Positions 26,065 to 58,121 of a stretch of DNA of 64,000 nt are shown here, one piece after another; within the stretch, counting starts at the first letter, position 1, and every line of letters begins with the position of its first letter. A program made the position numbers and the translations under genes. The notes beneath the pieces are model-generated. The model saw only the letters and a program-made list of their open reading frames with translations, was not told the DNA's origin and did no database searches. The stretch is from contig CAJXAZ010000001.1 in assembly GCA_913050015.1 (NCBI GenBank), positions 10,912 to 74,911 on the forward strand. Reading direction: 5' to 3'. This DNA comes from an uncultured Gammaproteobacteria bacterium. Its GTDB lineage: Bacteria > Pseudomonadota > Gammaproteobacteria > Magnimaribacterales > D2472.

Positions 26065-27186
26065 ATGTCCTTTAAATCTATTCTAGCCCTTGAAGATGGA
26101 AGTATATTCTATGGAGAGGGGTTTGGTGAAGAAAAATATGAAGTAGCTGAAATCGTATTTAATACCTCAATGACCGGTTACCAAGAAATAATCACCGATC
26201 CATCTTATAAAAAACAAATTATAACTTTTACGCATCCGCATATTGGTAACACTGGCATAAATGATGAAGATAATGAATCTTCCATGATTCATGCATCAGG
26301 CATTATTGTTAATAATTTTTGTATAAAACCTAGTAACTGGAGGTCTACCAAAAGCTTAGAAACATTCTTAAATGAGCAAGGTGTTATAGCTATATCTGGA
26401 ATTAATACTAGAAAATTAACTAAGATTATAAGAGATAAGGGCTCCATGAATTGCTGTATAGGCTCTCTTTCGAAGATATCAGAAGAAGATGCTATTAAAC
26501 AAGCTCAGAATTTTTCAGGGCTCAAGGGTCTTGATCTTGCAAAAGGCGTCTCTACAGAGCTAAGTTACAAGTGGAATGAAGGGGTATGGCCTGATCATAA
26601 GCCCGCTAGTCATTCACACCCTATAGTTGCTTATGATTTTGGAGTTAAGACAAATATTTTGAGACTTTTATCAGATCATCTGGGCGAGATAATAGTTGTT
26701 AATGCCGAAACATCCTTTGAAGAGGTTATGAAACTTTCTCCTAAGGGAATATTTCTTTCCAATGGTCCCGGAGACCCAGAGCCATGCACTTATGCAATTG
26801 AGAATATTAAAAAATTTCTAGAAGTTAAAATCCCAATTTTTGGGATTTGTTTAGGGCATCAACTTCTTGCTCTTGCCGGTGGTGCAAAAACTTATAAAAT
26901 GAAGTTCGGTCATCATGGCGCCAACCATCCTGTTCAAAATATTTCATCCTCAGAAGTCATGATTACCAGTCAAAATCATGGATTCTCAGTAGATGAATCC
27001 TCATTACCGGATAATATAAAACCTTCCTATATTTCTTTATTTGATAATTCACTGCAAGGCATCGAGTTTAATGATGCTCCTGCTTTTAGTTTTCAAGGTC
27101 ACCCAGAGGCAAGTCCCGGGCCTCAGGAAATACAAACATTATTTAATAAATTTACTTCCATGGTGGATGAGTATGCCAAGACGTAA
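26065..27186 (+). CDS. carA: Carbamoyl-phosphate synthase small (glutaminase) subunit
   Basis: Contains [21 protein letters not shown] and the catalytic-triad context. Length 373 aa. Confidence 0.96.
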
Positions 27187-30100
27187 CGACATAAAATCTA
27201 TTTTAATTATTGGAGCAGGTCCTATAATTATTGGTCAAGCATGTGAGTTTGATTATTCTGGAGCTCAGGCTTGCAAAGCTCTTAAAGATGAAGGTTTTAG
27301 AGTAATACTTGTAAATTCAAATCCTGCAACAATAATGACGGATCCTTTGCTAGCAGATGCTACTTATATAGAGCCAATTCACTGGAAGTCCGTAGAAAAA
27401 ATAATCGAGAAAGAGAAGCCAGATGCAATTTTACCTACCATGGGTGGGCAAACAGCTCTCAATACAGCTCTGTCATTAGATAAGGAAGGTGTTTTAGAAA
27501 AGCATGGAGTTATATTAATTGGAGCCAACAGAGAGGCGATTGATAAGGCTGAAGACAGGCAGCTTTTCGATGAAACAATGAATGCCATTAATATAGATAC
27601 TCCAAATTCTGGCATTGCTCATTCAATGGAAGATGCTTTGTCGGTGCAAAGTAGAATTGGTTTCCCGTGCATCATCAGACCATCTTTTACTATGGGCGGA
27701 ACAGGGGGTGGAATTGCATATAATATCGATGAGTTCAAGGGCATATGTGAAAAAGGATTAGAGCTCTCTCCTACAACTGAGCTCTTAATCGATGAATCAT
27801 TGATCGGTTGGAAAGAGTTTGAAATGGAGGTTGTAAGGGACTGCGAAGATAATTGTATTATTGTCTGTTCAATTGAAAACTTAGACCCGATGGGTGTTCA
27901 TACCGGGGACTCAATTACTATTGCCCCAGCTCAAACGTTAACTGATAAAGAATATCAAATCATGAGAAATGCTTCTTTTAAAATTTTAAGAGAGATTGGT
28001 GTTGATACTGGTGGATCAAACGTTCAATTCGCTATCAATCCAGATAATGGAAAGATGGTTGTTATAGAGATGAACCCTAGGGTAAGTAGATCCTCAGCTC
28101 TTGCATCAAAAGCAACAGGTTTCCCAATTGCTAAGGTTGCTGCCTTGCTTTCGGTTGGATTTACACTCGATGAATTAAAAAATGATATAACAGGTGGGCT
28201 TACTCCAGCATCCTTTGAGCCAAGTATTGATTATATTGTTACAAAGATTCCTAAATTTGCTTTTGAAAAATTCCCACAAGCTAGTTCAAAATTAACAACT
28301 CAAATGAAATCAGTCGGCGAGGTTATGGCTATAGGCTCTAACTTCCAAGAGTCTTTGCAAAAGGCACTTTGCAGTATGGAAGAGGATCTAGATGGGTTGA
28401 ATTCAATGTTTAAATCTATAGAAGAATCTAATAAAGAAGAAATTCAATATGAGCTAACTTTCCCTGGACCAAAAAGATTATTTTATGTAGCTGATGCGAT
28501 GAGAACCGGGTGGAGTTTAGAAAGAATATACGAACTAACAAAAATCGATTATTGGTTTTTAGACCAAATTAAAGAAATCATAGATATAGAAGAGGCTTTA
28601 AAAAATAAAAAAATTCAAGATCTGACAAAATTAGAAATCCTTCCTTTAAAGGAGAAGGGATTTTCTGATTCTAGAATAGCTAGAATGATTAATTCGACTG
28701 AGGCTGATTTTAGAAAGCATAGAATTGATAACAAAATCATTCCAATCTTTAGAAGAGTCGATACTTGTGCAGCAGAATTTGCTACCTCAACCTGTTATAT
28801 GTATTCAACATACGGAGAGGATTGCGAAAGCAAGCCATCTGAAAATAGAAAAATATTAGTTTTAGGAAGTGGGCCCAATAGAATAGGTCAGGGCATTGAG
28901 TTTGATTACTGTTGTGTTCATGCGTCTCTTGCTATGCAAGAAGAAGGCATTGAGTCGATTATGGTTAATTGCAATCCTGAAACCGTCTCCACGGATTACG
29001 ATGTGTCTGACAGGTTGTACTTTGAGCCCATAACAGCTGAAAAGATTTTGGATATTATTGATAATGAAAATCCCGAAGGTGTAATTATTCAATTTGGAGG
29101 TCAAACACCTCTTAAATTAGCTGATATTCTTTCTGAAAAAGGAGTAAAAATTCTTGGTACTGATGTTGATGCGATTGACAGATCAGAGGATAGAGAGCGT
29201 TTCCAGGAATTAGTTACTAAACTTAATTTAAAACAACCATCAAATGCAACGGTTAGAAATATCACTGAAGCTCTAGAAAAAGCTGAGATAATTGGCTTCC
29301 CAATAGTTGTAAGACCATCATATGTTCTTGGTGGGAGGGCGATGCAGCTTGTCCACAACCCCAAGGAGCTTGAAACATATCTTACCGAGGCTGTTGAGGT
29401 TTCAAACAGCAAACCCATTTTGCTTGATAGTTATCTGACTGACGCTATTGAGGTTGATGTGGACGTAATTTCAGACGGAGTGAATATGGAAATTGGAGGA
29501 ATTCTCCAGCATATTGAGCAAGCTGGGATTCATTCTGGTGACTCGGCATGTTCTCTTCCTCCGTATAGCTTATCTTTAGAAATCCAAGAGCGTCTTTCAA
29601 TACAATCTAAGGATATTGCAAAGGAATTAAATATCATTGGATTGATGAATATTCAATTTGCTATCAAAGAGGATGATATTTATATCATCGAAGTTAATCC
29701 AAGAGCATCGCGAACAGTCCCTTTTATATCTAAAGCTGTTGGAAACTCATTAGTAAAAGTTGCTTCAAAAGCAATGATAGGAAAAAGCCTTCTAGAGCAA
29801 GATTTCTCTTGCGAACTGCCTAAAGATTTATTTTTCGTAAAAGAAGCTGTTATGCCATTTGATAAATTTCCTCTAGTAGATCCTATATTGGGTCCAGAGA
29901 TGAAATCTACTGGAGAGGTTATGGGAATTGGGCCTACCTTTGGCGAGGCTTATGCCAAGGCCCAGAAAGGCGCAAATAAAATTCTACCTAGATCTGGTTC
30001 TATCTTTATAAGTGTAAAAGATTCAGATAAAAAATATTTAGATAAACTAATTCCTTTAGTTGTAGATAATGGTTTTGACATAATAGCAACAGGAGGAACA

Positions 30101-30394
30101 GCTGAATATATCAAAAGTCTTGGCCATGAAGTTAAGAGGATTAATAAAGTTACAGAAGGAAGACCACACACTGTAGATTGTCTTTTGAATAAAGAAATTG
30201 ATTTAATAGTTAATACTACAGAAGGTAAGCAATCTATAGAAGATTCTGCATCTATGAGAAAAACTGCTTTACGAAATAAAATATTCTGCACTACTACAAT
30301 GTTTGGCGCCTTTGCGATCATGGAAGCATTAAAGAGCGAGGAAGTTGACTGGTCCTATAACAGTCTTCAAGAAATAAGTACTTATTCATCTTAG
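27173..30394 (+). CDS. carB: Carbamoyl-phosphate synthase large subunit
   Basis: I place the start at ATG 27173 ([30 protein letters not shown]), overlapping carA by 14 nt. The track ORF extends upstream to 27041 with non-homologous sequence. The protein has duplicated ATP-grasp halves and an MGS-like C-terminus. Confidence 0.96.
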
Positions 30395-48351: not shown

Positions 48352-49169
48352 AAGTTATCCAAACTCTCTAAACGCGAATATTGTAATGGTTTAGCTAAAA
48401 AGAATCTCCACTTAGAAGGAATTATTTTCAAAATTTTTCTCATTTCAATATCACTTGTATATTTTATAAACATTGAAGAGCCACTTCCAGAAAGGCATAT
48501 TTCATGTTTTTTAATATTCTTTTGATAAAATTCTTCAATTGACTTGTTTTTTTCAATAAATATATTCCAGAAGGAATTTTGTTCAGAAATTAGAGCATTA
48601 GAGCTACCTGCTTCCCAATTATCATATTGATCAAACATTTCTTTTGATGAATTGAAAATCATAGGATCAATAATTACAACTTTTTCCGATATTGAATCTT
48701 TTGGAATAAAAATATCTCCAATACCTCTAGCATAGGCATTTTTACCTTTAATAAAGAATGGAACATCTGCGCCTATTGTTCTCCCTATATCAGTCATTTT
48801 TTTTTCATCTAAATTCATATTCCAAATCTTATTAAGGGCCAATATCGTTGTAGCTGCATTTGAGCTCCCACCTCCTAATCCAGCTCCTATAGGAATATTT
48901 TTCTTTACACTAATATTTACACCATGATTACTATTTACGATGTCTTGCATGGCCTTGGCTGCTTTAAAAATAATGTTATTTTCTGGAGCTATTGATGCTT
49001 CATCGCAACTAACAGAGATGCGGTCTGGGCAATCGCTAAAAACTAAGTCATCACATAAATCAATAAGTTGAAAAGAGGTATCTAACTCATGATAGCCATT
49101 GGAAAGTTTCCTTAGTATCTTTAAATGGAGATTAATTTTTGCGGGAGATTTAATAGTTATATCTTTCAT
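48342..49169 (-). CDS. ispE: 4-diphosphocytidyl-2-C-methyl-D-erythritol kinase
   Basis: GHMP kinase motif PIGAGLGGGSSNAA. Length 275 aa. The last 3 codons and the stop lie inside the tRNA-Gln 5' acceptor stem. Confidence 0.92.
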   Translation of the reverse strand: MKDITIKSPAKINLHLKILRKLSNGYHELDTSFQLIDLCDDLVFSDCPDRISVSCDEASIAPENNIIFKAAKAMQDIVNSNHGVNISVKKNIPIGAGLGGGSSNAATTILALNKIWNMNLDEKKMTDIGRTIGADVPFFIKGKNAYARGIGDIFIPKDSISEKVVIIDPMIFNSSKEMFDQYDNWEAGSSNALISEQNSFWNIFIEKNKSIEEFYQKNIKKHEICLSGSGSSMFIKYTSDIEMRKILKIIPSKWRFFLAKPLQYSRLESLDNFGV

Positions 49170-49657
49170 AAACTTTCAAGGAAACTTTTCACTTCATAGT
49201 CCTTGTATCTAATGTTAAAAGTTATCTTTTTATCTTTCTTGAAACAGTCAATGTAGAGTTCTTTTGGCTTAATTAATTTTTTTAATGGATCATAATTGCC
49301 TGAAAGGCATTCAAATATAATTTTTTGAAAATACGGACCATGATTAACTAAGCTTTCTTCAAGAAAGTTACTTTTAATTTTATAGCTGCTGGAAGCCTCT
49401 TTATTAGCATTTAGCTCAATATTTGCTACATTTCCAATAAAGGCTTTGTTAACCTGTATAATAGTCAAACTCTTATTGGATATAACTTTGAGGTTAAATG
49501 AACTGTTTTGGTAATTTTCTGAATTAATCATAACTTTGCCACTATATTCATTTATCAAACCACTACTAGTAGGGTAAATACTTGCACATGAATAAAATAA
49601 ACCACTTAAAAGTAATACAAAAAATTTATTAAAAATGGAATTACAGCTATTTGGCAT
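49166..49657 (-). CDS. lolB: Probable outer-membrane lipoprotein LolB
   Basis: Conserved position upstream of ispE and divergent from hemA. Signal peptide with a lipobox-like LFYSC. Length 163 aa. Sequence similarity to E. coli LolB could not be verified by eye. Confidence 0.55.
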   Translation of the reverse strand: MPNSCNSIFNKFFVLLLSGLFYSCASIYPTSSGLINEYSGKVMINSENYQNSSFNLKVISNKSLTIIQVNKAFIGNVANIELNANKEASSSYKIKSNFLEESLVNHGPYFQKIIFECLSGNYDPLKKLIKPKELYIDCFKKDKKITFNIRYKDYEVKSFLESL

Positions 49658-50864
49658 AAATCATAAAACTTCCAATGTTTCTGAGAGAGAGCAATTTATT
49701 ATAAATGACTCTAACCAAGTTTTATTGCATTCTTTTTTAAAAGAAAGACTTGGGAGTAAAATTGATTCCTTTTTTGGAATATCCACATGCAATAGAACAG
49801 AGATTTATATTCTTGGCGACCCTGGTATTGCAAAATCCGTCTTAAGAGAAACTAGAGAATGTTTGAACATTAGTATTGATGCTAAAAACTTCTATTTTCT
49901 ATTCGACCAAGATGCCTTCATACACATGAGTAAAGTTGCGTCAGGAATTGATTCGCAAGTTCTCGGAGAGCAGGAGATATTTGGACAATTTAAAAAAGCA
50001 ATAAAGAGTGCCCAAGACCTAAAAATTATTAAACCAAGACTTCTGGCTTACTCAGACAAAGTTATTGAGATAGTAAAAAAGGCAAGAACTAAAACTGAAA
50101 TAGGTTTAAACCCTCTATCTGTGAGCGGCTTATCATTTAATTTAGTTAAGAATATTTTTGAGAAGCCTGAGGAGCAGAATATTTTGATAGTAGGTGCAGG
50201 ATCACTTGCACATGCTGTTATTAAAAATTTATTTAAAAATGGAATTGAAAATATAAGGGCGGTGAATAGAAATATTAGAGAGATAGTTATCTCTGATGAA
50301 TTCAAGGTAATGCCTGCCTCGTTGGAAAAACTTCATGATGAATTAGAAGTTGCTGATATCGTTATAGCCTCAGCAACAACAGATCTTCCTTTAATTGGAA
50401 AGGGTGCTGTAGAAAATGCTTTGAAGCTTAGAAAAAATAAACCAATGCTTCTTATAGATTTGTCAGTCCCAAGAAATATAGAAGAAGAAATAAAAAATAT
50501 TGAACAAGCATATCTTTTCTCCATTGATGATATTGAAAAAATCACCCAAGATAACTTTGGCCAGAGATCCATTGAGGCTGAAAAAGCTTTAAATATTATA
50601 GTTATAGAATCTCAAGTGGCTATACGAGAGCTTGATAAAAAGTTTCTTAAAGACAGCATAAATAAACATTTAGAAGAATTTTTAAATTCGTTATCTGAGG
50701 AAGAGATAAGCAGATTTAAGAAAGCTGAGGATTTAAAGCAGATGATTACTAACTTAGCTATTATTAAGTCAGAGAATAATATAACAACTAGAATTGCTGA
50801 ACTGGAGAGCTTAGAGTCTCACGTTATAGAGTCTATGTTTAAAAGGTATATAGATAATGCATGA
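49635..50864 (+). CDS. hemA: Glutamyl-tRNA reductase
   Basis: MELQLFGINHKTSNVSEREQF is collinear from residue 1 with E. coli MTLLALGINHKTAPVSLRE. Contains the catalytic-Cys block STCNRTEIY and the NADPH site VGAGSLA. Length 409 aa. Confidence 0.95.
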   Translation: MELQLFGINHKTSNVSEREQFIINDSNQVLLHSFLKERLGSKIDSFFGISTCNRTEIYILGDPGIAKSVLRETRECLNISIDAKNFYFLFDQDAFIHMSKVASGIDSQVLGEQEIFGQFKKAIKSAQDLKIIKPRLLAYSDKVIEIVKKARTKTEIGLNPLSVSGLSFNLVKNIFEKPEEQNILIVGAGSLAHAVIKNLFKNGIENIRAVNRNIREIVISDEFKVMPASLEKLHDELEVADIVIASATTDLPLIGKGAVENALKLRKNKPMLLIDLSVPRNIEEEIKNIEQAYLFSIDDIEKITQDNFGQRSIEAEKALNIIVIESQVAIRELDKKFLKDSINKHLEEFLNSLSEEEISRFKKAEDLKQMITNLAIIKSENNITTRIAELESLESHVIESMFKRYIDNA

Positions 50865-51942
50865 GTCAATGTTGGTAAAACTAGGGAAGCTGCAAATCAG
50901 ATTGGCTGAAATAGAGGAATTATTAATTGATTCAGAAACAATCAAGGATATGGAAAATTACACTCTTTTAAATAAAGAATTTGCAGATTTAAAACCTATT
51001 GTTGATAAATTTAAAGAATATAAAGTTGTAGTCGAAGCCATTAAAGATGCTAATGAAATCATTGAATCTGGCGATGAGGATCTAATCAGTTTGGCTGAAG
51101 AAGAGTTAAAGGAATCACTTCATAAACCAGATTTACTAGAGCAGGAATTAAAGGTGATGCTTCTTCCAAAAGACACTGCCGATGACGGATCTGCTTTCTT
51201 GGAGATTAGAGCCGGTGCTGGAGGCGACGAAGCAGGGATATTTGCAGGCGATCTTTTTAGAATGTATTCAAGACTTGCAGAAAGAGAAGGCTGGAATATC
51301 GATGTAATTGATATCAAGCAAGCAGAGCAGGGTGGCTTGAAAGAAGTTGTTGCTCAATTGGAAGGAAAGAGTGTTTTTAAAGTTTTAAAATTCGAGTCAG
51401 GAGTTCATAGGGTCCAGAGGGTTCCTGAAACAGAGTCACAGGGAAGGATTCATACATCTACATGTACAGTAGCAGTTCTGCCTGAGGTCAAAGAAGTTCA
51501 GGATATTGCTATAGATAAAAATGATTTAAGAGTTGATACATACAGGGCATCTGGAGCAGGTGGTCAGCACGTAAACAAGACCGATTCGGCTGTAAGGTTA
51601 ACTCATATCCCATCAGGTCTAGTGGTTGAGTGTCAAGATGGAAGATCTCAACATAAAAATAAAGAGAAGGCATTATCATTGCTTGCTGCGAAGCTAAAGC
51701 AACAAGAAGTGGAAAGCCAGCAAGAGAGTATTGCAAGTGAGCGAAAAATTTTAGTTGGAACAGGTGATAGAAGTGAAAAAATTAGAACCTATAACTTTCC
51801 TCAGGGAAGAATGACAGACCACAGAATTAAGCTAACCCAACATAATTTAGATCAAATTATGGATGGAGACATAAAAACCATATGTGATGCACTTATAGCT
51901 GAAAATCAATTGGCAATGTTATCCCAACTTGAATCAGAATAA
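50857..51942 (+). CDS. prfA: Peptide chain release factor 1
   Basis: Contains SGAGGQHVNKTDSAVRLTHIPSG (GGQ). Length 361 aa. The start is either the ATG at 50857, overlapping the hemA stop, or the ATG at 50869. Confidence 0.96.
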   Translation: MHESMLVKLGKLQIRLAEIEELLIDSETIKDMENYTLLNKEFADLKPIVDKFKEYKVVVEAIKDANEIIESGDEDLISLAEEELKESLHKPDLLEQELKVMLLPKDTADDGSAFLEIRAGAGGDEAGIFAGDLFRMYSRLAEREGWNIDVIDIKQAEQGGLKEVVAQLEGKSVFKVLKFESGVHRVQRVPETESQGRIHTSTCTVAVLPEVKEVQDIAIDKNDLRVDTYRASGAGGQHVNKTDSAVRLTHIPSGLVVECQDGRSQHKNKEKALSLLAAKLKQQEVESQQESIASERKILVGTGDRSEKIRTYNFPQGRMTDHRIKLTQHNLDQIMDGDIKTICDALIAENQLAMLSQLESE

Positions 51943-52770
51943 TTGAGCCCTAATCTTAATTATTATAAAAATAAAGTTGCCGATACCTGGCCCCATGATC
52001 ATGAGATATCAAAAGAGTTTATTTTTTATTTAAAAGAAGTCTTAGGCCTCAAAGACACTGCTATTTACATAGATAGAGACTATCTTTTATCTAATGATGA
52101 GCAAGGGGCTATAGAAGAATTTATTAATCATAAAAAAAATGGAGTACCTTTAGACTATATTTTAAAAAAATCTTTTTTTTATGGAAATGAGTTTCTGGTT
52201 GATAAAAGAGTTCTTATTCCAAGACCTGAAACTGAGCTTCTTGTAGATTACATAAATAATTTAAAATTCTTAGATGATATAAAAATTTTAGATGCGGGAA
52301 CTGGGTCGGGTTGCATTGGTATTTCTATTGCTATCGATAATCCAAATATCGAAGTCTATGGCCTTGATTATTCAGCTAAATCTATTGAGGTTGCCAATGC
52401 TAATAAAAATTATTTTGAGTTAAATAATTTCTCTTTGATTCATTCTGACTGGTTATCATCGATAAAAGATAGATCAATTGACATTGTTGTCAGCAATCCA
52501 CCCTATATCGACTCAGAGGACAAGCATTTAAGGGACTTAATACATGAACCGATCTCAGCCTTAGTTGCCTCTGAAGGAGGCTTAGGAGACTTTAAGGTTA
52601 TTTCTTACCAAGCTTCTTTAAAGCTCAAAAAGGGTGGGATACTGATCTTTGAGCATGGTTACCAACAGGCGAGTTACGTGTCAAACATTATGAGGGAGAA
52701 TGGTTTTAATAATATTGAGTCATTTAAAGATCATCAATCACACCTAAGAATAACTAAGGGTATAATTTAA
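51943..52770 (+). CDS. prmC: Release-factor glutamine N5-methyltransferase (HemK)
   Basis: TTG start abutting the prfA stop. SAM site LDAGTGSGCIGI and the catalytic block VSNPPYI. Length 275 aa. Confidence 0.92.
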   Translation: MSPNLNYYKNKVADTWPHDHEISKEFIFYLKEVLGLKDTAIYIDRDYLLSNDEQGAIEEFINHKKNGVPLDYILKKSFFYGNEFLVDKRVLIPRPETELLVDYINNLKFLDDIKILDAGTGSGCIGISIAIDNPNIEVYGLDYSAKSIEVANANKNYFELNNFSLIHSDWLSSIKDRSIDIVVSNPPYIDSEDKHLRDLIHEPISALVASEGGLGDFKVISYQASLKLKKGGILIFEHGYQQASYVSNIMRENGFNNIESFKDHQSHLRITKGII

Positions 52771-52774
52771 AGAG

Positions 52775-53809
52775 ATGAAATACACAGGTTACATAGAGGG
52801 ATACTACGGAAAACTTTTATCTTGGGATGAAAGAATTGAGATCATAGGCCATCTTTCTCAAAATAACCTAAATACATACTTTTATTGTCCAAAAGAAGAC
52901 CCTCAGCATAGATCGGAGTGGAAAAAACCGTATTCCCAGAATTGGCTAGACTTATTTTCAAACTTCATCAGTGTCTCTGACAAAAATGGTATTAATGTAA
53001 TTTTTGGGATATCGCCAGGATTAGATTTCAACGACTCGTTAGAGGATTTATTTTTAAAGATAAATGCAATTACTAGCTTGGGTATTAACAATGTCGCAAT
53101 TCTTTTTGATGATTTATTTGAAGATCAGTCTGGCCAAGTGCACGCAGATATTTTGAACAAATGCTTGAATAAGTTTTCTGGTGTTAGTTTTTATTGCGTC
53201 CCTTCGGAGTACTGCAGTCAACTTTCAAAACCTAATTTCAATGAAAGTGCGTATCTAGAAAATTTAGCTGCATCCCTGAGCGGTGATATACCTATTTTTT
53301 GGACAGGGGATAAGGTAGTTTCGAGCAACTACTTGAATGAAGATATATCTTTATGGAAAGAAAAATTAAAACATCCCTTAATAATATGGGACAACTTTTA
53401 TGCAAATGATTATTGCACTCCAAAAGTTGTAATTGATGATTTCTACTCTATAGATAATACAGATTTAAGCTCACTTGAAGGGATTTTGATTAATCCAATG
53501 GGCCTTATAGAGGCAGATAAAATTGCTATATCTACTTTTAGTAATAGCTTAAATAATCATCCTAAATCGTTTGATGAAATTCTAAAAGAATCAGATTTGC
53601 CAGAAAATTTTGTTGCTATAGCTAGGCTATTTAAATTTAATGCCTCTATAGATCTAGATGAAAAGGAATTAAAAATACTTGAAGGCTATCTTTGGAACTG
53701 GCATGGCAATCTTAAATCAGAGCTATATCCATATATGCATTTATTAAGAAGGATGATTGAAGATGGAGTATCTGAGGATATTCTCTTGAAAAGATTTAAT
53801 ATTTCTTAA
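52775..53809 (+). CDS. Glycoside hydrolase family 84 (O-GlcNAcase / beta-N-acetylglucosaminidase-like) catalytic domain, no signal peptide
   Basis: GH84 blocks appear in order: GYIEGYYGKLLSW, LNTYFYCPKEDPQH, FGISPG, VAILFDDL (catalytic Asp-Asp), CVPSEY, IFWTGDKVVS, IIWDNFYANDY and LINPM. The ORF starts directly at the first barrel strand. Length 344 aa. Confidence 0.8.
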   Translation: MKYTGYIEGYYGKLLSWDERIEIIGHLSQNNLNTYFYCPKEDPQHRSEWKKPYSQNWLDLFSNFISVSDKNGINVIFGISPGLDFNDSLEDLFLKINAITSLGINNVAILFDDLFEDQSGQVHADILNKCLNKFSGVSFYCVPSEYCSQLSKPNFNESAYLENLAASLSGDIPIFWTGDKVVSSNYLNEDISLWKEKLKHPLIIWDNFYANDYCTPKVVIDDFYSIDNTDLSSLEGILINPMGLIEADKIAISTFSNSLNNHPKSFDEILKESDLPENFVAIARLFKFNASIDLDEKELKILEGYLWNWHGNLKSELYPYMHLLRRMIEDGVSEDILLKRFNIS

Positions 53810-53812
53810 GGT

Positions 53813-55294
53813 TTAAGTTCCACAAAATGTTTTAAATGGTATTTCAGGATTAGGTGAAGGTAGTGCATAAGATTCATTCCCTTCATTCTCTTCATATGGA
53901 TTTATCAAAACAGAAAGTAAATTTGAAAATGGCTCCATGTCATTTTTATGAACGGCTGAAAAAAGTGCTTCTTCGACTTTATGGTTTCTGGGTATGTAAA
54001 TAGGATTAATCTTATTCATTGCACTAACTATATCCTCATCTGGAACATTCTCTTGCGAGACCCTCTCTTGCCAATGCATAAACCAAACATCAAACTTTTT
54101 AGAATTATTAAAAAGATTTCTAGCTACCGCCATATCCCCAGTAAGAGCTTTTGATAAACTTCGAAAGGCAAGAGTAAAATCGGTTTTCTCATCCTTCATG
54201 ATTTCTAAAAAGTTATTAATTAATTCATAATCTTTTGGATCTTCTTTTGATAATCCTATTTTAGATCTCATATTCATTAGCCAAAAATTTTCATAAACAG
54301 GTTTAATCAGTTGAAGGACTTCTGTAAGAAGCTTAATAGATTCTTCTTTTTCGTCATGCACAAGCGGAATCAAGGTCTCAGCTAGCCTTGTCAGATTCCA
54401 AGTTAATATTGCAGGTTGATTTGCATAGGCATATCTTCCTTGTTTATCAATGGAGCTAAAAACAGTTGCTGGATGATATTCATCCATAAAAGCACAAGGA
54501 CCATAGTCTATAGTCTCTCCTGAGATGGTCATATTATCTGTATTCATAACACCATGAATAAAGCCAACACTCATCCAATTAGCAATTAAAGAGGCTTGTT
54601 CGTTGCAGATGCCAGCAAAGAATGCCAAGTAAGAGTTTTCTACTTTTGCAGTATCTGGATAATGTCTTGCAATAGAATAATCAGCTAATTTTTTAATTTG
54701 ATCCTTATCCTCTAGCTTACTTGCATACTCAAATGTCCCTATGCGAATATGACTTGAAGCAACTCGAGTAAGAATTCCCCCTGGCAATGAAGTTTCTCTT
54801 AAGACATTTTCGCCGCTGTCTATTGCAGCCAAAGACCTAGTTGTTGGTATTCCCATGGCATGCATACTTTCGCTTATAAGATATTCTCTTAAAACTGGCC
54901 CAAGTGCTGATTTCCCATCTCCTCTTCGAGAAAAGGGAGTAATACCTGATCCTTTTAGCTGTATATCTTTTAACTGCTTATGAATATCAACAATCTCTCC
55001 AAGTAAAAGAGCTCTGCCATCTCCTAAATACGGATTAAAATTACCAAACTGATGACCTGCATATGCTTGAGCTATTGGGGTGGATCCTTCTGGAATTTTA
55101 TTACCAGAAAAAATAGACAATCCATAATCAGAACTAAAAATAAAAGGATCTAGCTCTAATTCTTCTGCGAGATCATAGTTAAATAAAAGCATTTTTGGAG
55201 ACGGCACAGGATCCGCAATACATTCTTTATAAAGCCCATTTAAATTATCAGCATAAGTATTTTGAAAATCAAATGTAGATGCTTTCTTAATCAT
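53813..55294 (-). CDS. selO: Protein adenylyltransferase SelO (YdiU/UPF0061 pseudokinase-fold AMPylase)
   Basis: Contains AYAGHQFGNFNPYLGDGRALLLGE and HGVMNTDNMTISGETIDYGP. The C-terminus is FCGT, with Cys at the antepenultimate position. Length 493 aa. Confidence 0.9.
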   Translation of the reverse strand: MIKKASTFDFQNTYADNLNGLYKECIADPVPSPKMLLFNYDLAEELELDPFIFSSDYGLSIFSGNKIPEGSTPIAQAYAGHQFGNFNPYLGDGRALLLGEIVDIHKQLKDIQLKGSGITPFSRRGDGKSALGPVLREYLISESMHAMGIPTTRSLAAIDSGENVLRETSLPGGILTRVASSHIRIGTFEYASKLEDKDQIKKLADYSIARHYPDTAKVENSYLAFFAGICNEQASLIANWMSVGFIHGVMNTDNMTISGETIDYGPCAFMDEYHPATVFSSIDKQGRYAYANQPAILTWNLTRLAETLIPLVHDEKEESIKLLTEVLQLIKPVYENFWLMNMRSKIGLSKEDPKDYELINNFLEIMKDEKTDFTLAFRSLSKALTGDMAVARNLFNNSKKFDVWFMHWQERVSQENVPDEDIVSAMNKINPIYIPRNHKVEEALFSAVHKNDMEPFSNLLSVLINPYEENEGNESYALPSPNPEIPFKTFCGT

Positions 55295-55296
55295 TT

Positions 55297-55962
55297 TTAA
55301 TCAATAAAAGTAGCGAATGAATCTATGCTGTCTCGTGATGTTCTATATTGATTAATTGGATCTTCAGTGTTCGGATAACCTATGGCAATTCCACACCAGA
55401 CCATTTCGTTGTCTGGATGTTTGACAACTTGCTTTACTGTTTTTGGATAAATAGACCAAGATTCTTGAAGGCAAACACCCAACCCTTCGTCCATTGCAGC
55501 AAGCCATAAATTCTGAAGAAACATTCCAACGTGACCCCAACCATTAGGGGCAAAACTTTTATCTATCGTCACTATCATGCCAACAGGAGCTCCAAAGAAA
55601 TTAAAATTTTCTCTAATTTGTTTCATTCTTGCATCTATATCATCCCTTTCAATAGATATAGCCTCATACATATCAGAGGCACATTCAGATCTTCTTTTTT
55701 TGTACTCATCGGCTAGAGGTTTTGGATATATTTCGTAATCTATTGCTTCCTGAACTCCATTATCAAAATTACTTACAGCCTGAGTCGTTAGTTCTTTGTA
55801 TGAATTATTAGAAACAACATATACCTTCCATGGCTGAATATTTCCTCCAGAAGGAGCTGAGTTCGCAGTTTTAAGGATTTCCTTAATCAATTCCAAAGAC
55901 ACTTCTTTGTCAATGAAACTTCTTACAGAGTATCTAGACGTGATTAATTTTTTTATGCTCAT
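55297..55962 (-). CDS. Nitroreductase family flavoprotein
   Basis: Contains SRYSVRSF and APSGGNIQPW, typical nitroreductase N-terminal blocks. Length 221 aa. It lies 2 nt upstream of selO on the same strand. Confidence 0.8.
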   Translation of the reverse strand: MSIKKLITSRYSVRSFIDKEVSLELIKEILKTANSAPSGGNIQPWKVYVVSNNSYKELTTQAVSNFDNGVQEAIDYEIYPKPLADEYKKRRSECASDMYEAISIERDDIDARMKQIRENFNFFGAPVGMIVTIDKSFAPNGWGHVGMFLQNLWLAAMDEGLGVCLQESWSIYPKTVKQVVKHPDNEMVWCGIAIGYPNTEDPINQYRTSRDSIDSFATFID

Positions 55963-56041
55963 GGCTTCCTAATAATTTTTATTAACAATTCATTGTTCCT
56001 TCTTATATAATTTATATCAATCATTTTTTAGGGGTACTTAT

Positions 56042-57658
56042 ATGATCGGAGATATGCAAAAGTGGACACCAAATGTTGCAAGCATTATTGAGCATGCTAA
56101 AAACATCTATCCAACTCAAGAAGTTATTAGCAGAATGGTATCAGGTGAGGTTCATAGGACTAACTATGAAGAGGTTTGCATTAGATCTAGAAAGCTAGCT
56201 TCTGCTTTAGAAAAAGACGGTTATAAAAACGGCGACATTATTGCAACACTAGCTTTAAATACATATAGACATTTGGAGATGTACTACGGAATCTCAGGAA
56301 TGGGTGCGGTTATCCATACTTTAAATTTCAGGCTACATCCGGATCAAGCTGTATATATTATTAATCATGCAGAAGATAAAGTTATTTTTGTTGAGACTCC
56401 TTTCATACCAATGCTAGAAGGGCTTGAAGAGCAACTTAAATGTGTTGAAAAATATATTATTCTCTGTGATGAATCTGAAATGCCAAGCACCGTCTTAAAA
56501 AATGCAATTTCCTATGAAGAATATATAAAAGATGGAGATGAAGACTATCAATGGCCAGCTTTAGAAGATGATGCTGCATGTGGTCTCTGTTATACATCTG
56601 GAACTACAGGGGATCCTAAAGGAGTTCTTTATGGGCACAAATCAAATATTTTGCATGCACAAGCTTCATTGATTGGGTTAACTGTTAGCCCTGATGAGGC
56701 AATATTAATGGTTGTTCCCTTATTCCATGTTCAAGCCTGGGGAATTCCTTTTTATGGTCCAATGTTTGGCTTAAAACTAGTTATGCCAGGGCTACAAATG
56801 GAAGGCGAACCACTTTACGATCTTATAGAGAGTGAAGGCGTCACTTTAGCCTTTGGCGTTCCTACTATTTGGATGGGACTACTTAACTATTGTAGAGATA
56901 ATGATAAAACTCTTACATCAGTTCGAAATGCAGTTATAGGCGGGTCAGCACTTTCCCTTTCTATGCTTCAAGAGTTTGATGAAGCTCATGACGTGAATGT
57001 AATCCAGGGTTGGGGAATGACTGAAATGAGTCCTTTGGGAACCTCAAATTTTCTTACACCAGAAATGAAGAAGATGAGTAAAGAGGAAAGGTATGCAGTT
57101 CAATTAAAGCAAGGCAGACCAATGTACGGGGTTGAGCTAAAAGTTGTGGATGATTCAGGTGCAGAACTCCCTCATGATGGTGAGTCGCAAGGTCATTTAC
57201 TAGTAAGAGGACCATGGGTTCTTAAGCGATATTTCAAAGCAGAAAAAGATTGCGTTGATAAAGATGGTTGGTTTGATACTGGAGATATTTCAGTCTTAGA
57301 TAAAGATGGTTATATGACTATTACAGATAGGGCTAAAGATGTTATTAAATCTGGTGGAGAGTGGATTAGCTCAATTGATTTAGAAAATGCAGCTGTAGGA
57401 CATCCCGAGGTTATTGAGGCATGTGTTGTCGGACTACCTCATCCTAAGTGGGATGAAAGACCAATGTTATTCATTGTTACCAATACTGGAGAGCCTATAG
57501 ATAAAAATAGTATTTTAGAGTTCCTTGGTTCAAGAGTTGCAAAATGGTGGCTACCAGATGAGATTATTTTCTTAAAAGAATTGCCTCATGGAGCAACAGG
57601 TAAATTACAGAAGTTTGAATTGAGAGACGAATATAATAATTACTATATGGAGAAATAA
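56042..57658 (+). CDS. Acyl-CoA synthetase (AMP-forming fatty-acid--CoA ligase family)
   Basis: Contains the AMP-binding block [22 protein letters not shown] and a C-terminal GKLQK. Length 538 aa. Confidence 0.88.
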
Positions 57659-57659
57659 G

Positions 57660-58121
57660 ATGTTACATGTCATAAAACCCTCAGAAATTGAGTCAGTTAT
57701 TGGAAAAGAAGTTGGAACTTCTGATTGGATTACTATTGATCAGGAGAGAATAGATAAGTTTGCTGATGCAACTATGGATAATCAGTTTATTCATGTCAAT
57801 CCAGAGCAAGCAGAACCTATATTTGGTTCAACAATTGCTCATGGTTTTCTTTCTTTATCTCTGGTAGCTGGAATACCATTTTCACAAGGAATGGGTCTGG
57901 TATTGGAAGGGACAAAAATGGGATTAAATTATGGTTTAGACAAGGTAAGATTTTTAAGCCCAGTTCCTGTTAATTCAGAAGTTAGAATAATAATGAAATG
58001 CCTTGATATAACTGAAAAAAATCCAGGACAATATCTAGCTAAAACTGAAGTAACTATGGAGATAAAAGGGGTGGCAAAACCTGCTTTTGTTGCTGAAACT
58101 CTAAGTCTTTATATACTTTAG
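57660..58121 (+). CDS. MaoC-like (R)-specific enoyl-CoA hydratase (hot-dog fold)
   Basis: Contains DQERIDKFADATMDNQFIHVNPEQA...TIAHGFL. Length 153 aa. Immediately downstream of the acyl-CoA synthetase. Confidence 0.8.
   Translation: MLHVIKPSEIESVIGKEVGTSDWITIDQERIDKFADATMDNQFIHVNPEQAEPIFGSTIAHGFLSLSLVAGIPFSQGMGLVLEGTKMGLNYGLDKVRFLSPVPVNSEVRIIMKCLDITEKNPGQYLAKTEVTMEIKGVAKPAFVAETLSLYIL

What the first reader, a model, noticed from the sequence alone, without database searches (positions are those of the whole stretch)
52775..53809. Minimal cytoplasmic GH84 (O-GlcNAcase-like) enzyme appended to the hemA-prfA-prmC operon
The ORF carries the GH84 catalytic blocks in order, including the Asp-Asp pair in VAILFDDL. 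It begins directly at the first barrel strand (MKYTGYIEGYYG), so there is no signal peptide or lipobox. At 344 aa it lacks the carbohydrate-binding or stalk modules typical of secreted bacterial GH84 enzymes.

It starts 4 nt after the prmC stop, so it is probably co-transcribed with translation-termination genes. No GT41-type O-GlcNAc transferase is visible in the window.

In a genome this compact, a retained intracellular GH84 implies a real substrate. Candidates are an intracellular O-GlcNAc-like protein modification, GlcNAc-oligosaccharide catabolism, or a NagZ-like role in muropeptide recycling. These are inferences. Its 3' end is 3 nt from the convergent selO, another protein-modification enzyme, which may be coincidence.
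Basis: partly seen in the sequence, partly recalled or inferred. Interest (0 to 1): 0.55.

Follow-up and report, generated by a model that had tools for sequence, protein, structure and literature searches.

The report
Compact cytoplasmic GH84, likely NagZ substitute
This SAR86 (marine bacterioplankton) gene encodes a real, very compact intracellular GH84 beta-N-acetylglucosaminidase. Comparative genomics suggests it stands in for the missing NagZ enzyme in cell-wall (muropeptide) recycling, not in O-GlcNAc protein signalling.

Summary
ORF 52775-53809 (+, 344 aa) matches Pfam NAGidase/GH84 at E=3.8e-59. All catalytic and sugar-binding residues are present (D112/D113, Y146, W205, N207, D212, N240). 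It has no signal peptide and no possible upstream start, and lies 4 nt after prmC.

It is not a bare barrel. A confident AlphaFold model (pLDDT 92.9) shows a TIM barrel plus an ~80-aa C-terminal helical mini-stalk, superposing on human OGA and OgOGA (TM 0.81-0.87).

The window is SAR86. The protein belongs to a distinct short (340-410 aa) GH84 subfamily found in SAR86, SAR116, Granulosicoccaceae and Fibrobacterota.

- In 25 of 26 SAR116/alphaproteobacterial loci and 2 of 3 Granulosicoccaceae loci, the homologue sits among ampG, anmK, murQ and ampD-like genes, sometimes overlapping anmK.
- In published gene tables of three SAR86 MAGs, all keep AmpG, AmpD and AnmK. The one with GH84 lacks GH3 NagZ; the two with NagZ lack GH84 at the same prmC junction.
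- None of the three has a GT41 OGT.

Best reading: non-orthologous replacement of NagZ, cleaving GlcNAc from GlcNAc-anhMurNAc. Confidence is about 0.65 and no biochemistry exists. The prmC and selO adjacency is lineage synteny, not function.

The parts
52775..53809 (+). Gene for the compact cytoplasmic GH84 beta-N-acetylglucosaminidase (344 aa plus stop)
   Evidence: ORF. Pfam PF07555 E=3.8e-59. PDB GH84 hits, best E=2e-40. The exact protein occurs in 274 blocks of the public collection.
52775..53554 (+). Catalytic (beta/alpha)8 barrel, residues ~1-260
   Evidence: AF2 model with pLDDT 92.9: alternating strands and helices E3-8 ... E236-239. Pfam match covers residues 5-263. Foldseek TMq 0.77-0.87 to GH84 structures.
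53108..53113 (+). Codons GAT GAT for the catalytic pair D112-D113 (equivalent to hOGA D174/D175)
   Evidence: Read from the sequence. Invariant in 90 homologues. Mapped to hOGA through the P0063/5uhk alignment.
53570..53797 (+). C-terminal helical bundle (mini-stalk), residues ~266-341, with the subfamily motif LLWxW..RExYPY (W307, W309, E316, Y318)
   Evidence: Helices H266-271, H277-286, H296-308, H312-330 and H334-341. Near-invariant columns. TMq 0.87 to the hOGA catalytic+stalk construct requires part of this region to superpose. Only the short subfamily aligns beyond residue ~265.
52763..52765 (+). In-frame TAA four codons upstream of the ATG; rules out an N-terminal extension or signal peptide
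   Evidence: Read from the sequence.
49635..52770 (+). hemA (49635-50864), prfA (50857-51942) and prmC (51943-52770): the co-directional genes to which GH84 is appended
   Evidence: ORFs with an 8-nt overlap, a 0-nt gap and a 4-nt gap. Pfam GlutR, PCRF/RF-1 and MTS on the identical locus L090. No terminator-like site in 49000-56200.
53813..55294 (-). Convergent selO (context only, not part of the system)
   Evidence: Pfam SelO on L090. It follows GH84 in only 4 of 41 SAR86-type loci.

Best explanation
The gene encodes an active, cytoplasmic, retaining exo-beta-N-acetylglucosaminidase of family GH84. D112 would polarise the substrate's 2-acetamido group for substrate-assisted catalysis and D113 would act as general acid/base.

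Its most likely physiological job is the NagZ step of peptidoglycan (muropeptide) recycling:
1. Lytic transglycosylases release GlcNAc-1,6-anhydroMurNAc(-peptide).
2. AmpG imports these fragments.
3. This GH84 removes the non-reducing GlcNAc.
4. AmpD and AnmK then process the anhMurNAc part.

On this reading it is a non-orthologous replacement of GH3 NagZ in a SAR86 lineage. Its position after prmC would reflect only gene packing in a streamlined genome.

Shown: family, residues, fold, lack of secretion signal, gene neighbourhoods of homologues, and the NagZ/GH84 presence-absence pattern. Inferred: the substrate, and that the window's own genome lacks NagZ.
For: 1. Enzyme integrity. Pfam and PDB matches. 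G9, K40, D112, D113, Y146, D206, N207, D212 and N240 are invariant and W205 is nearly invariant in 90 homologues. These map to hOGA G67, K98, D174, D175, Y219, W278, N280, D285 and N313. The model has pLDDT 92.9 and TMq 0.81-0.87 to OGA structures.

2. Cytoplasmic location. An in-frame stop lies 4 codons upstream and there is no hydrophobic N-terminus.

3. Neighbourhoods. In 25 of 26 SAR116/alphaproteobacterial loci and 2 of 3 Granulosicoccaceae loci, two or more muropeptide-recycling genes lie within 8 kb of the homologue.
- Identities were confirmed above curated cut-offs: AmpG TIGR00901 369.6 and 358.4 bits against 350; AnmK NF007139 508.9 against 367; MurQ NF009222 477.2 against 255.
- Gene order differs between the two lineages. 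GH84 overlaps anmK by 4 nt in L077 and abuts it in L084. This points to functional linkage and not inherited synteny.

4. SAR86 gene tables of Priest et al. 2023 (PMC10504371 supplement).
- MAG asv18 has prfA-prmC-GH84-dmdB-like, plus AmpG, AmpD, AnmK and MltB, but no K01207/GH3, GH20 or GH73.
- MAGs asv157 and asv189 have AmpG, AmpD, AnmK and GH3 NagZ, but no GH84. Their prmC is followed directly by selO or the ligase.

5. No GT41 appears in any of the three SAR86 tables, although the same pipeline finds GT41 in two other MAGs.

6. Precedent. A GH20 enzyme (NagX) can substitute for NagZ in S. maltophilia (PMC13436218).
Against: - No biochemistry exists for any member of this short subfamily.
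- In SAR86 itself, 0 of 41 loci have recycling genes next to GH84. The window holds none.
- The SAR86 protein is only 30-40% identical to the cluster-embedded homologues, so function transfer is an inference.
- The complementarity rests on three MAGs (one GH84+, two NagZ+) that may be incomplete. The window's own genome could not be checked for nagZ, ampG or anmK.
- Fibrobacterota homologues (0 of 18 loci) and an OgOGA-like relative show other contexts: SprT-like/HisRS, and ABC permease-GH84-GNAT. The role is therefore not universal to cytoplasmic GH84s.
Confidence: 0.65

Rival explanations
1. Catabolic or scavenging hexosaminidase. The enzyme would hydrolyse imported GlcNAc-terminated oligosaccharides from the environment (chitobiose, exogenous peptidoglycan fragments, glycoconjugates) to feed carbon and nitrogen metabolism, and would not recycle the cell's own wall.
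For: - SAR86 is described as able to degrade peptidoglycan and polysaccharides (PMC3358033).
- An OgOGA-like relative lies directly after ABC-transporter permease genes.
- In one SAR86 subclade the gene lies between a cytochrome b561 gene and an esterase gene, near lipid and ester hydrolases.
- The chemistry (exo-beta-GlcNAc removal) is the same as in the best explanation.
Against: - The GH84-bearing SAR86 MAG has no NagA (K01443/CE9), NagK (K00884) or MurQ (K07106) in its gene table, so a GlcNAc catabolic route is not evident.
- No sugar transporter lies next to the gene in any of the 41 SAR86-type loci.
- The tightly linked partners elsewhere are the AmpG/AnmK/MurQ recycling set.
- This rival overlaps the best explanation, because AmpG could also import foreign muropeptides.
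Confidence: 0.18
2. True protein O-GlcNAcase. It would remove O-GlcNAc from cytoplasmic proteins as half of a bacterial O-GlcNAc cycle, as proposed for Thermobaculum terrenum.
For: - Closest solved structures are OGAs: 9qep E=2e-40, hOGA about 1e-36, TtOGA 7.5e-38.
- The fold includes a stalk-like helical domain.
- Aglycone-platform residues Y11 and Y213 (hOGA Y69 and Y286) are conserved.
- TtOGA is cytoplasmic and active on O-GlcNAc peptides (PMC4683255).
Against: - No GT41 in the window.
- No GT41 in any of three SAR86 MAG gene tables, though the pipeline detects GT41 in other MAGs.
- The stalk is truncated by about 100 aa relative to OgOGA and TtOGA.
- Homologue neighbourhoods are cell-wall recycling genes, not signalling genes.
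Confidence: 0.05
3. Hydrolase for another cytoplasmic GlcNAc conjugate, for example a GlcNAc-containing small molecule or thiol precursor, or a lipid-linked or nucleotide-linked intermediate. It would act together with a PIG-L/BshB-like deacetylase.
For: In SAR116 loci, a PIG-L family gene is the immediate divergent neighbour of GH84. Its best NCBIfam match is BshB1 at 72 bits, below the cut-off of 182.5.
Against: - The PIG-L gene is absent from the Granulosicoccaceae clusters and from SAR86 neighbourhoods.
- A deacetylase fits peptidoglycan sugar recycling equally well, as a NagA-like step.
- There is no independent sign of such a metabolite pathway.
Confidence: 0.06

Closest known systems
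OgOGA (Oceanicola granulosus GH84, PDB 2xsa/7khs, 447 aa) and TtOGA (Thermobaculum terrenum, PDB 5diy, 474 aa)
   Same: Bacterial, without signal peptide, and with two-domain architecture: GH84 barrel plus C-terminal helical bundle ('stalk'). Same catalytic DD pair and sugar-binding residues. Foldseek TMq 0.81 to OgOGA; phmmer E=1e-30 (OgOGA) and 7.5e-38 (TtOGA).
   Different: - About 100-130 aa shorter, with a truncated stalk (~80 aa) and shorter barrel loops.
- Only the catalytic domain aligns by sequence.
- TtOGA co-occurs with a GT41 OGT, whereas SAR86 MAGs have none.
- An OgOGA-like relative lies in an ABC permease-GH84-GNAT context, not a recycling cluster.
- The physiological roles of the bacterial OGA orthologues used as structural models remain undefined (PMC4683255).
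NagZ (GH3 cytoplasmic beta-N-acetylglucosaminidase of muropeptide recycling)
   Same: Proposed same reaction and pathway position: removal of GlcNAc from GlcNAc-1,6-anhMurNAc-peptides after AmpG import. Similar size (~340 aa) and cytoplasmic location. Homologues of the window protein occupy the place beside ampG, ampD, anmK and murQ. NagZ and GH84 are mutually exclusive in three SAR86 MAGs.
   Different: Unrelated family and mechanism. GH3 NagZ uses an enzyme nucleophile with a His/Asp dyad, whereas GH84 uses substrate-assisted catalysis through an oxazoline intermediate (established knowledge). Inhibitor sensitivity should therefore differ: NAG-thiazoline and thiamet-G act on GH84. The window protein has no GH3 match.
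Human/metazoan OGA (hOGA, PDB 5tke, 5vvv, 5m7r)
   Same: Same fold for the catalytic and stalk parts (TMq 0.84-0.87). All sugar-contacting residues are conserved.
   Different: No pseudo-HAT domain, no disordered insert, and no OGT partner. The likely substrate is a disaccharide-peptide and not a glycoprotein.
Secreted multi-modular bacterial GH84s (BtGH84/BT_4395, C. perfringens NagJ)
   Same: Catalytic domain, E about 5e-38 to 1e-35.
   Different: Those enzymes carry signal peptides, an N-terminal domain, CBM32 and other modules (600-1000+ aa). NCBIfam GlcNAcase NF041654 scores 142 bits against a cut-off of 1000, so the window protein is not that equivalog.
NagX (GH20, periplasmic) of Stenotrophomonas maltophilia
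   Same: Published precedent for a non-GH3 hexosaminidase that supplies the NagZ-type activity in muropeptide processing (PMC13436218).
   Different: Different family (GH20), periplasmic, and it acts alongside NagZ instead of replacing it.

Membership tests
CAZy GH84 / Pfam PF07555 NAGidase | Profile match above the curated threshold | tested here: met
   200.9 bits against a cut-off of 25, E=3.8e-59, residues 5-263.
CAZy GH84 / Pfam PF07555 NAGidase | Adjacent catalytic Asp-Asp pair (hOGA D174/D175; BtGH84 D242/D243) | tested here: met
   D112-D113 in ...AILFDDL.... Invariant in 90 homologues and aligned to the DD pair of hOGA and BtGH84.
CAZy GH84 / Pfam PF07555 NAGidase | GlcNAc-binding residues (hOGA G67, K98, Y219, W278, N280, D285, N313) | tested here: met
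   G9, K40, Y146, W205, N207, D212 and N240. All are invariant or nearly invariant. Numbering was mapped through the 5uhk alignment.
CAZy GH84 / Pfam PF07555 NAGidase | (beta/alpha)8 barrel fold | tested here: met
   AF2 pLDDT 92.9, pTM 0.92. All of the top 50 listed Foldseek PDB hits are GH84, E about 3e-24.
CAZy GH84 / Pfam PF07555 NAGidase | beta-N-acetylglucosaminidase activity | not testable with these tools
   Needs an enzyme assay (pNP- or 4MU-GlcNAc; D112N and D113N controls).
Protein O-GlcNAcase system (OGA with OGT) | Cognate GT41 O-GlcNAc transferase in the same genome | tested here: not met
   None in the 64-kb window. No GT41 in the dbCAN columns of three SAR86 MAG tables, including the GH84-bearing one, while GT41 is reported for two other MAGs. 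The window's whole genome could not be scanned.
Protein O-GlcNAcase system (OGA with OGT) | Full stalk domain forming the peptide groove; pseudo-HAT domain in metazoa | tested here: not met
   Only an ~80-aa helical bundle follows the barrel and there is no HAT/GNAT domain. Sequence similarity to OGAs ends near residue 265.
Protein O-GlcNAcase system (OGA with OGT) | Activity on O-GlcNAc peptides or proteins | not testable with these tools
   Needs biochemistry.
NagZ (GH3) - membership | GH3 fold and the KH(F/I)PG(H/L)GxxxxD(S/T)H motif | tested here: not met
   The only Pfam/NCBIfam hits are GH84. It is an analogue, not a member.
NagZ-like function (muropeptide recycling) | Cytoplasmic location | tested here: met
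   No signal peptide and no possible N-terminal extension.
NagZ-like function (muropeptide recycling) | Genomic linkage to ampG, ampD, anmK and murQ | tested here: inconclusive
   Met for homologues: 25 of 26 SAR116/alphaproteobacterial loci and 2 of 3 Granulosicoccaceae loci, with curated-threshold identities. Not met in SAR86: 0 of 41 loci, and none in the window.
NagZ-like function (muropeptide recycling) | Complementary phyletic pattern with GH3 NagZ while the rest of the pathway is kept | tested here: met
   Three of three SAR86 MAGs in PMC10504371 Supplementary Files S1 fit. asv18 is GH84+/NagZ-; asv157 and asv189 are GH84-/NagZ+. All have AmpG, AmpD and AnmK. The sample is small and these are MAGs.
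NagZ-like function (muropeptide recycling) | Hydrolysis of GlcNAc-1,6-anhMurNAc(-peptide) | not testable with these tools
   Needs a purified enzyme with muropeptide substrates, or nagZ complementation.

The most novel reading that the evidence does not exclude
The short two-domain GH84 is the sole cytoplasmic GlcNAc-anhMurNAc hydrolase of NagZ-less SAR86, SAR116 and Granulosicoccaceae. GH84 would then be a third glycoside-hydrolase family to supply the NagZ-type step in muropeptide processing, after GH3 NagZ and GH20 NagX.

In the strongest version, muropeptide recycling is the ancestral job of the signal-less bacterial GH84 lineage from which eukaryotic O-GlcNAcase was later recruited.
Probability: 0.15. 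Interest if true: 0.8.

Novelty: new variant of a known kind. Interest (0 to 1): 0.55.

Why it matters
Three points.

1. Physiological role of signal-less bacterial GH84s. [quoted passage not shown] A concrete, testable role for one subfamily, the NagZ step of muropeptide recycling, would begin to fill that gap. It also gives a plausible pre-eukaryotic function for the OGA fold.

2. Peptidoglycan turnover in the ocean. SAR86 and SAR116 are among the most abundant ocean bacteria, so how they recycle peptidoglycan bears on marine carbon and nitrogen turnover. Pathway reconstructions that look only for GH3 NagZ would wrongly score recycling as broken in these clades.

3. A useful model enzyme. 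At 344 aa this is about 100 aa smaller than the smallest characterised GH84s, so it is a convenient minimal model for structure and inhibitor work. A GH84-based recycling step should be sensitive to OGA-type inhibitors (NAG-thiazoline, thiamet-G); whether NagZ-selective inhibitors spare it is untested.

Tried and rejected
- Promoter and terminator scan of 49000-56200. There were 25 promoter-like sites against 29.9 expected and no terminators, so it says nothing about an internal promoter.
- tblastn of SAR116 AnmK, MurQ, AmpG, amidase, PIG-L and YkuD against the window. No hits, so the window adds nothing on pathway content.
- tblastn of a BglX-type GH3 against all 96 loci and the window. Only the query's own locus hit. 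This is a weak test for NagZ.
- Whole-genome check of the window's organism for nagZ, ampG, anmK or GT41.
- Dupont et al. 2012 SAR86 supplement. Not held as text.
- Searches 'SAR86 + N-acetylmuramic' and the Magnimaribacterales preprint. Nothing relevant.
- Literature on GH84 in peptidoglycan recycling. Only one passing phrase in a preprint ('peptidoglycan recycling (GH103 and GH84)'). Nothing mechanistic.
- Fibrobacterota link to NamZ-MurU-AmgK. Present only in L041 and L093/L094, so it is not a general association.
- Test of whether OgOGA-type enzymes share the recycling context. The one OgOGA-like locus obtained (5 kb) shows ABC permease-GH84-GNAT instead. I therefore do not extend the claim to that clade.
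- Functional link to translation termination or to selO. Rejected because neither adjacency is conserved.
- NCBIfam 'GlcNAcase' equivalog. Rejected: 142 bits against 1000.
Full report
OBSERVATION. The ORF is exactly as described: 52775..53809 on the + strand, ATG start, 344 aa, beginning MKYTGYIEGYYG and containing VAILFDDL. prmC ends with TAA at 52768-52770, so the gap is 4 nt. In the GH84 frame a TAA lies at 52763-52765, four codons before the ATG, so no longer N-terminus or signal peptide can be encoded. The convergent selO gene ends at 53813, 3 nt beyond the GH84 stop. hemA, prfA, prmC and the GH84 gene overlap or abut (8-nt overlap, 0-nt gap, 4-nt gap). No terminator-like site occurs in 49000-56200. 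The promoter scan was no better than shuffled sequence. Co-transcription is therefore likely but only inferred.

FAMILY AND ACTIVE SITE. Pfam NAGidase (PF07555) matches residues 5-263 at 200.9 bits (cut-off 25; E=3.8e-59). The NCBIfam 'GlcNAcase' equivalog, built on the 732-aa Bacteroides type, scores only 142 bits against a cut-off of 1000, so the protein is not that orthologue. phmmer against all PDB sequences returns GH84 enzymes almost exclusively:
- an OGA (9qep), E=2e-40
- BtGH84, 5e-38
- TtOGA, 7.5e-38
- human OGA, about 1e-36
- NagJ, about 1e-35
- OgOGA, 1e-30

In a 90-sequence alignment of homologues, the invariant columns include G9, K40, D112, D113, Y146, D206, N207, D212 and N240. 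W205 is nearly invariant. I checked the numbering through the printed alignment of homologue P0063 to the hOGA construct 5uhk, whose index plus 55 gives hOGA numbering. These residues correspond to hOGA G67, K98, D174, D175, Y219, W278, N280, D285 and N313. That is the catalytic pair plus every residue known to hold the GlcNAc (residue roles from established OGA structural literature). Nothing suggests a pseudo-enzyme.

STRUCTURE. AlphaFold2 with the 90-sequence alignment gives a confident model (pLDDT 92.9, pTM 0.92). It shows a (beta/alpha)8 barrel (about residues 1-260) followed by five helices (266-341). Foldseek against the PDB returns GH84 structures in all of the top 50 listed hits. TM-scores normalised to the query are 0.84-0.87 for human OGA catalytic+stalk constructs (5tke, 5vvv) and 0.81 for OgOGA (7khs). 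The barrel is only 76% of the protein, so a TMq of 0.87 requires part of the C-terminal helices to superpose on the OGA stalk. The protein has the OgOGA/TtOGA two-domain plan, compressed by about 100 aa. The C-terminal domain carries a subfamily motif (L306, W307, W309, E316, Y318 at 90% or more).

ORGANISM AND SUBFAMILY. The window (GC about 0.34) is SAR86/Magnimaribacterales. The best genome match (96%) is 'SAR86 cluster bacterium SAR86B FRAM18_bin313', and about 40 further SAR86 genomes carry orthologues at 38-76% identity. The exact protein occurs in 274 blocks of the public assembly collection, so this is an abundant population. An exhaustive HMMER search of 1.84 billion cluster representatives finds 2816 GH84 relatives. 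Only about 50 clusters, nearly all 340-410 aa, align through residue ~325-343. All others align only over the barrel. This defines a distinct short two-domain subfamily. Its members come from SAR86, SAR116 and other Alphaproteobacteria, Granulosicoccaceae and Fibrobacterota.

GENE NEIGHBOURHOODS. I called ORFs in 89 loci, clustered them by all-against-all BLASTP, and named the recurrent clusters with Pfam and NCBIfam and with precomputed Pfam.

SAR86 (41 loci):
- The upstream neighbour is a ThiF-family gene that itself follows prmC in 23 loci, prmC directly in 10, and a cytochrome b561 gene in 8.
- The downstream neighbour is a dmdB-like CoA ligase in 20 loci, an esterase in 7, a 104-aa ORF in 7, and selO in only 4.
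- The prmC and selO adjacencies are therefore lineage synteny in a tightly packed genome.

SAR116/Alphaproteobacteria (26 loci):
- 25 have at least two muropeptide-recycling genes within 8 kb.
- The typical order is NlpC/P60 and Amidase_2 (AmpD-like), MurQ, AnmK, PIG-L, GH84, a HIBADH-like dehydrogenase, H+-PPase, YkuD, AmpG.

Granulosicoccaceae (Gammaproteobacteria, 3 loci):
- The same gene set appears in a different order.
- L077 reads NlpC/P60, amidase, AmpG, GH84, AnmK, MurQ, with GH84 and anmK overlapping by 4 nt.
- L084 reads amidase, AnmK, GH84, with the last two abutting.

Identities pass curated thresholds: AmpG family TIGR00901 at 369.6 and 358.4 bits (cut-off 350), AnmK NF007139 at 508.9 (367), MurQ NF009222 at 477.2 (255). 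The same partners in two classes with different gene orders point to functional coupling. The slot GH84 fills is the one NagZ fills in the textbook pathway.

Fibrobacterota and other loci (18) show no such linkage. Their conserved neighbours are a beta-helix protein, a SprT-like protein and HisRS. A NamZ-MurU-AmgK trio lies nearby in only two or three loci.

EVIDENCE INSIDE SAR86. The genome-wide question could not be answered with the sequence tools. It could be answered from published annotation tables. Supplementary Files S1 of Priest et al. 2023 (PMC10504371) hold complete gene tables for three SAR86 MAGs.

asv18 (file 20, 1197 locus-tag occurrences):
- Carries prfA-prmC-GH84 (CBOLCPCD_00292) followed by 3-methylmercaptopropionyl-CoA ligase.
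- Has AmpG (K08218), AmpD (K03806), AnmK (K09001) and MltB (GH103).
- Has no K01207/GH3, no GH20 and no GH73.
- Its YccU-enoyl-CoA hydratase locus, where NagZ sits in a sister MAG, is followed by DmdA instead.

asv157 (file 6):
- Has hemA-prfA-prmC followed 8 nt later by selO, nitroreductase and the ligase.
- This is the arrangement of our window minus the GH84 gene.
- It does carry GH3 NagZ, AmpG, AmpD and AnmK.

asv189 (file 16):
- Likewise has prmC followed directly by the ligase, with no GH84.
- It has GH3 NagZ, AmpG, AmpD and AnmK.

None of the three has MurQ, NagA or NagK. MurU, and an AmgK-named kinase (asv189) or an unnamed ORF in the AmgK position (asv157), appear in the two NagZ-bearing MAGs. 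This suggests a Pseudomonas-type anabolic route. GT41 is absent from all three tables, although the same pipeline reports GT41 in two non-SAR86 MAGs. [quoted passage not shown] That is the only prior hint I found.

MECHANISM PROPOSED.
1. Lytic transglycosylases (MltB and others) release GlcNAc-1,6-anhMurNAc-peptides.
2. AmpG imports them.
3. The GH84 enzyme removes the non-reducing GlcNAc by substrate-assisted catalysis. D112 orients and polarises the acetamido group and D113 acts as acid/base.
4. AmpD removes the peptide and AnmK phosphorylates anhMurNAc.

Shown here: steps 1, 2 and 4 have genes in SAR86 MAGs, and GH84 is intact, cytoplasmic, and complementary to NagZ. Inferred: the substrate of GH84, and that the organism of this window lacks nagZ.

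RIVALS.
- A scavenging or catabolic hexosaminidase is chemically the same reaction on imported substrates. It cannot be cleanly separated from recycling. The absence of NagA, NagK and MurQ and of adjacent sugar transporters argues against a catabolic emphasis.
- A true O-GlcNAcase is disfavoured by the absence of GT41 and by the truncated stalk.
- A role on another GlcNAc conjugate, suggested by the PIG-L neighbour in SAR116, has no independent support.

COMPARISON WITH THE KNOWN. By membership the protein is a GH84: all sequence and fold criteria are met, and activity is untested. It is not a GH3 NagZ. It is proposed to work like NagZ. The nearest characterised proteins are OgOGA and TtOGA, which are signal-less GH84 plus helical bundle enzymes. 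The physiological roles of such bacterial OGA orthologues are acknowledged as undefined (PMC4683255, PMC2973230). An OgOGA-like relative (P0232; E=1.7e-116 to 2xsa) lies in an ABC permease-GH84-GNAT context. I therefore do not extend the recycling claim to that clade. A GH20 enzyme (NagX) contributing NagZ-independent muropeptide processing was published in 2026 (PMC13436218). No equivalent statement for GH84 turned up in five full-text searches. The searchable library omits many subscription-journal papers.

NOVELTY AND VERDICT. The gene is a genuine, ordinary-looking member of a known enzyme family and is already auto-annotated as a 'beta-N-acetylglucosaminidase domain-containing protein'. 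Three things are new:
- recognition of a compact two-domain subfamily;
- its tight embedding in muropeptide-recycling clusters in two bacterial classes;
- the NagZ/GH84 either-or pattern within SAR86.

I rate it a new variant of a known kind, with interest 0.55. The hypothesis is well supported and directly testable, and would interest both cell-wall and O-GlcNAc specialists. It rests on comparative genomics with a small within-SAR86 sample and no biochemistry.

LIMITS.
- The window's own genome was not checked for nagZ, ampG, anmK or GT41.
- The MAG tables may be incomplete.
- The ORF clustering used simple ORF calls.
- Identity between the SAR86 protein and the cluster-embedded homologues is only 30-40%.

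Noticed in passing
window 49166-49657 (-) and 49635-50864 (+): The lolB-like lipoprotein ORF (163 aa by longest-ORF rule) overlaps the divergent hemA start by 23 nt. Public gene calls on the identical locus use a 121-aa version without overlap, so the longer start is probably wrong.
   Followed up: partly
window 56042-58121 (+): An AMP-binding CoA ligase plus a MaoC dehydratase lie downstream of the locus. Sister SAR86 MAG tables annotate the ligase as 3-methylmercaptopropionyl-CoA ligase (DmdB, K20034), so this is a DMSP-demethylation pathway pair.
   Followed up: partly
window 53813-55962 (-): The selO plus nitroreductase pair sits between GH84 and the dmdB-like gene only in the closest relatives (66% identity or more) and in the GH84-less MAG asv157. 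Most SAR86 loci go straight from GH84 to the ligase. The junction after prmC is thus a hotspot of gene gain and loss.
   Followed up: partly
L004-L006 9270-10004 and 20 further SAR86 loci: In most SAR86 lineages a ThiF/MoeB-family gene lies between prmC and GH84, often overlapping GH84 by 1-25 nt. Other gammaproteobacterial MAGs also have prmC followed by 'molybdopterin-synthase adenylyltransferase', so prmC-thiF may be the older arrangement.
   Followed up: no
L001-L003, L008, L012-L015: One SAR86 subclade (49-50% identity) has moved the gene to a cytochrome b561 - GH84 - esterase (PF00756) context, near ceramidase, acyltransferase and alpha/beta-hydrolase genes. In the GH84-less MAG asv157, NagZ lies three genes from a cytochrome b561-type 'superoxide oxidase' gene. 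Whether these are the same neighbourhood was not tested.
   Followed up: no
L050 9225-14041 and other SAR116 loci: The SAR116 recycling cluster also always includes three further genes: a PIG-L/BshB1-like deacetylase divergent from GH84, a HIBADH-like NAD-binding dehydrogenase immediately downstream, and a membrane H+-pyrophosphatase. Their roles in recycling are unexplained; the deacetylase could be a NagA-like substitute.
   Followed up: partly
L093 3841-6981, L094, L041: In a few Fibrobacterota loci a NamZ (exo-MurNAc-ase) - MurU-like - AmgK-like trio lies ~3 kb upstream of the GH84 gene. Most Fibrobacterota loci lack it and instead conserve a beta-helix protein, a SprT-like 247-aa protein and HisRS around GH84.
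   Followed up: partly
L096 1079-3869: An OgOGA-like 446-aa GH84 (E=1.7e-116 to PDB 2xsa, and 6e-118 to a human OGA construct) is flanked by ABC-transporter permease genes and a GNAT acetyltransferase. The GNAT neighbour recalls the pseudo-HAT domain fused to metazoan OGA.
   Followed up: no
P0057, P0090, P0110, P0116: Several homologues carry the JGI name 'DNA-directed RNA polymerase subunit N (RpoN/RPB10)', an obvious propagated misannotation of a GH84 protein.
   Followed up: no
P0121: A 2097-aa protein has a GH84 domain (residues 180-451) that scores higher against the SAR86 enzyme (E=8.6e-58) than most short-form relatives do. It is a giant multidomain relative of unknown context.
   Followed up: no
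window 26065-27186 and 27041-30394 (+): The longest-ORF call for carB (TTG at 27041) overlaps the preceding carA-like ORF by ~145 nt. The true carB start is probably further downstream.
   Followed up: no
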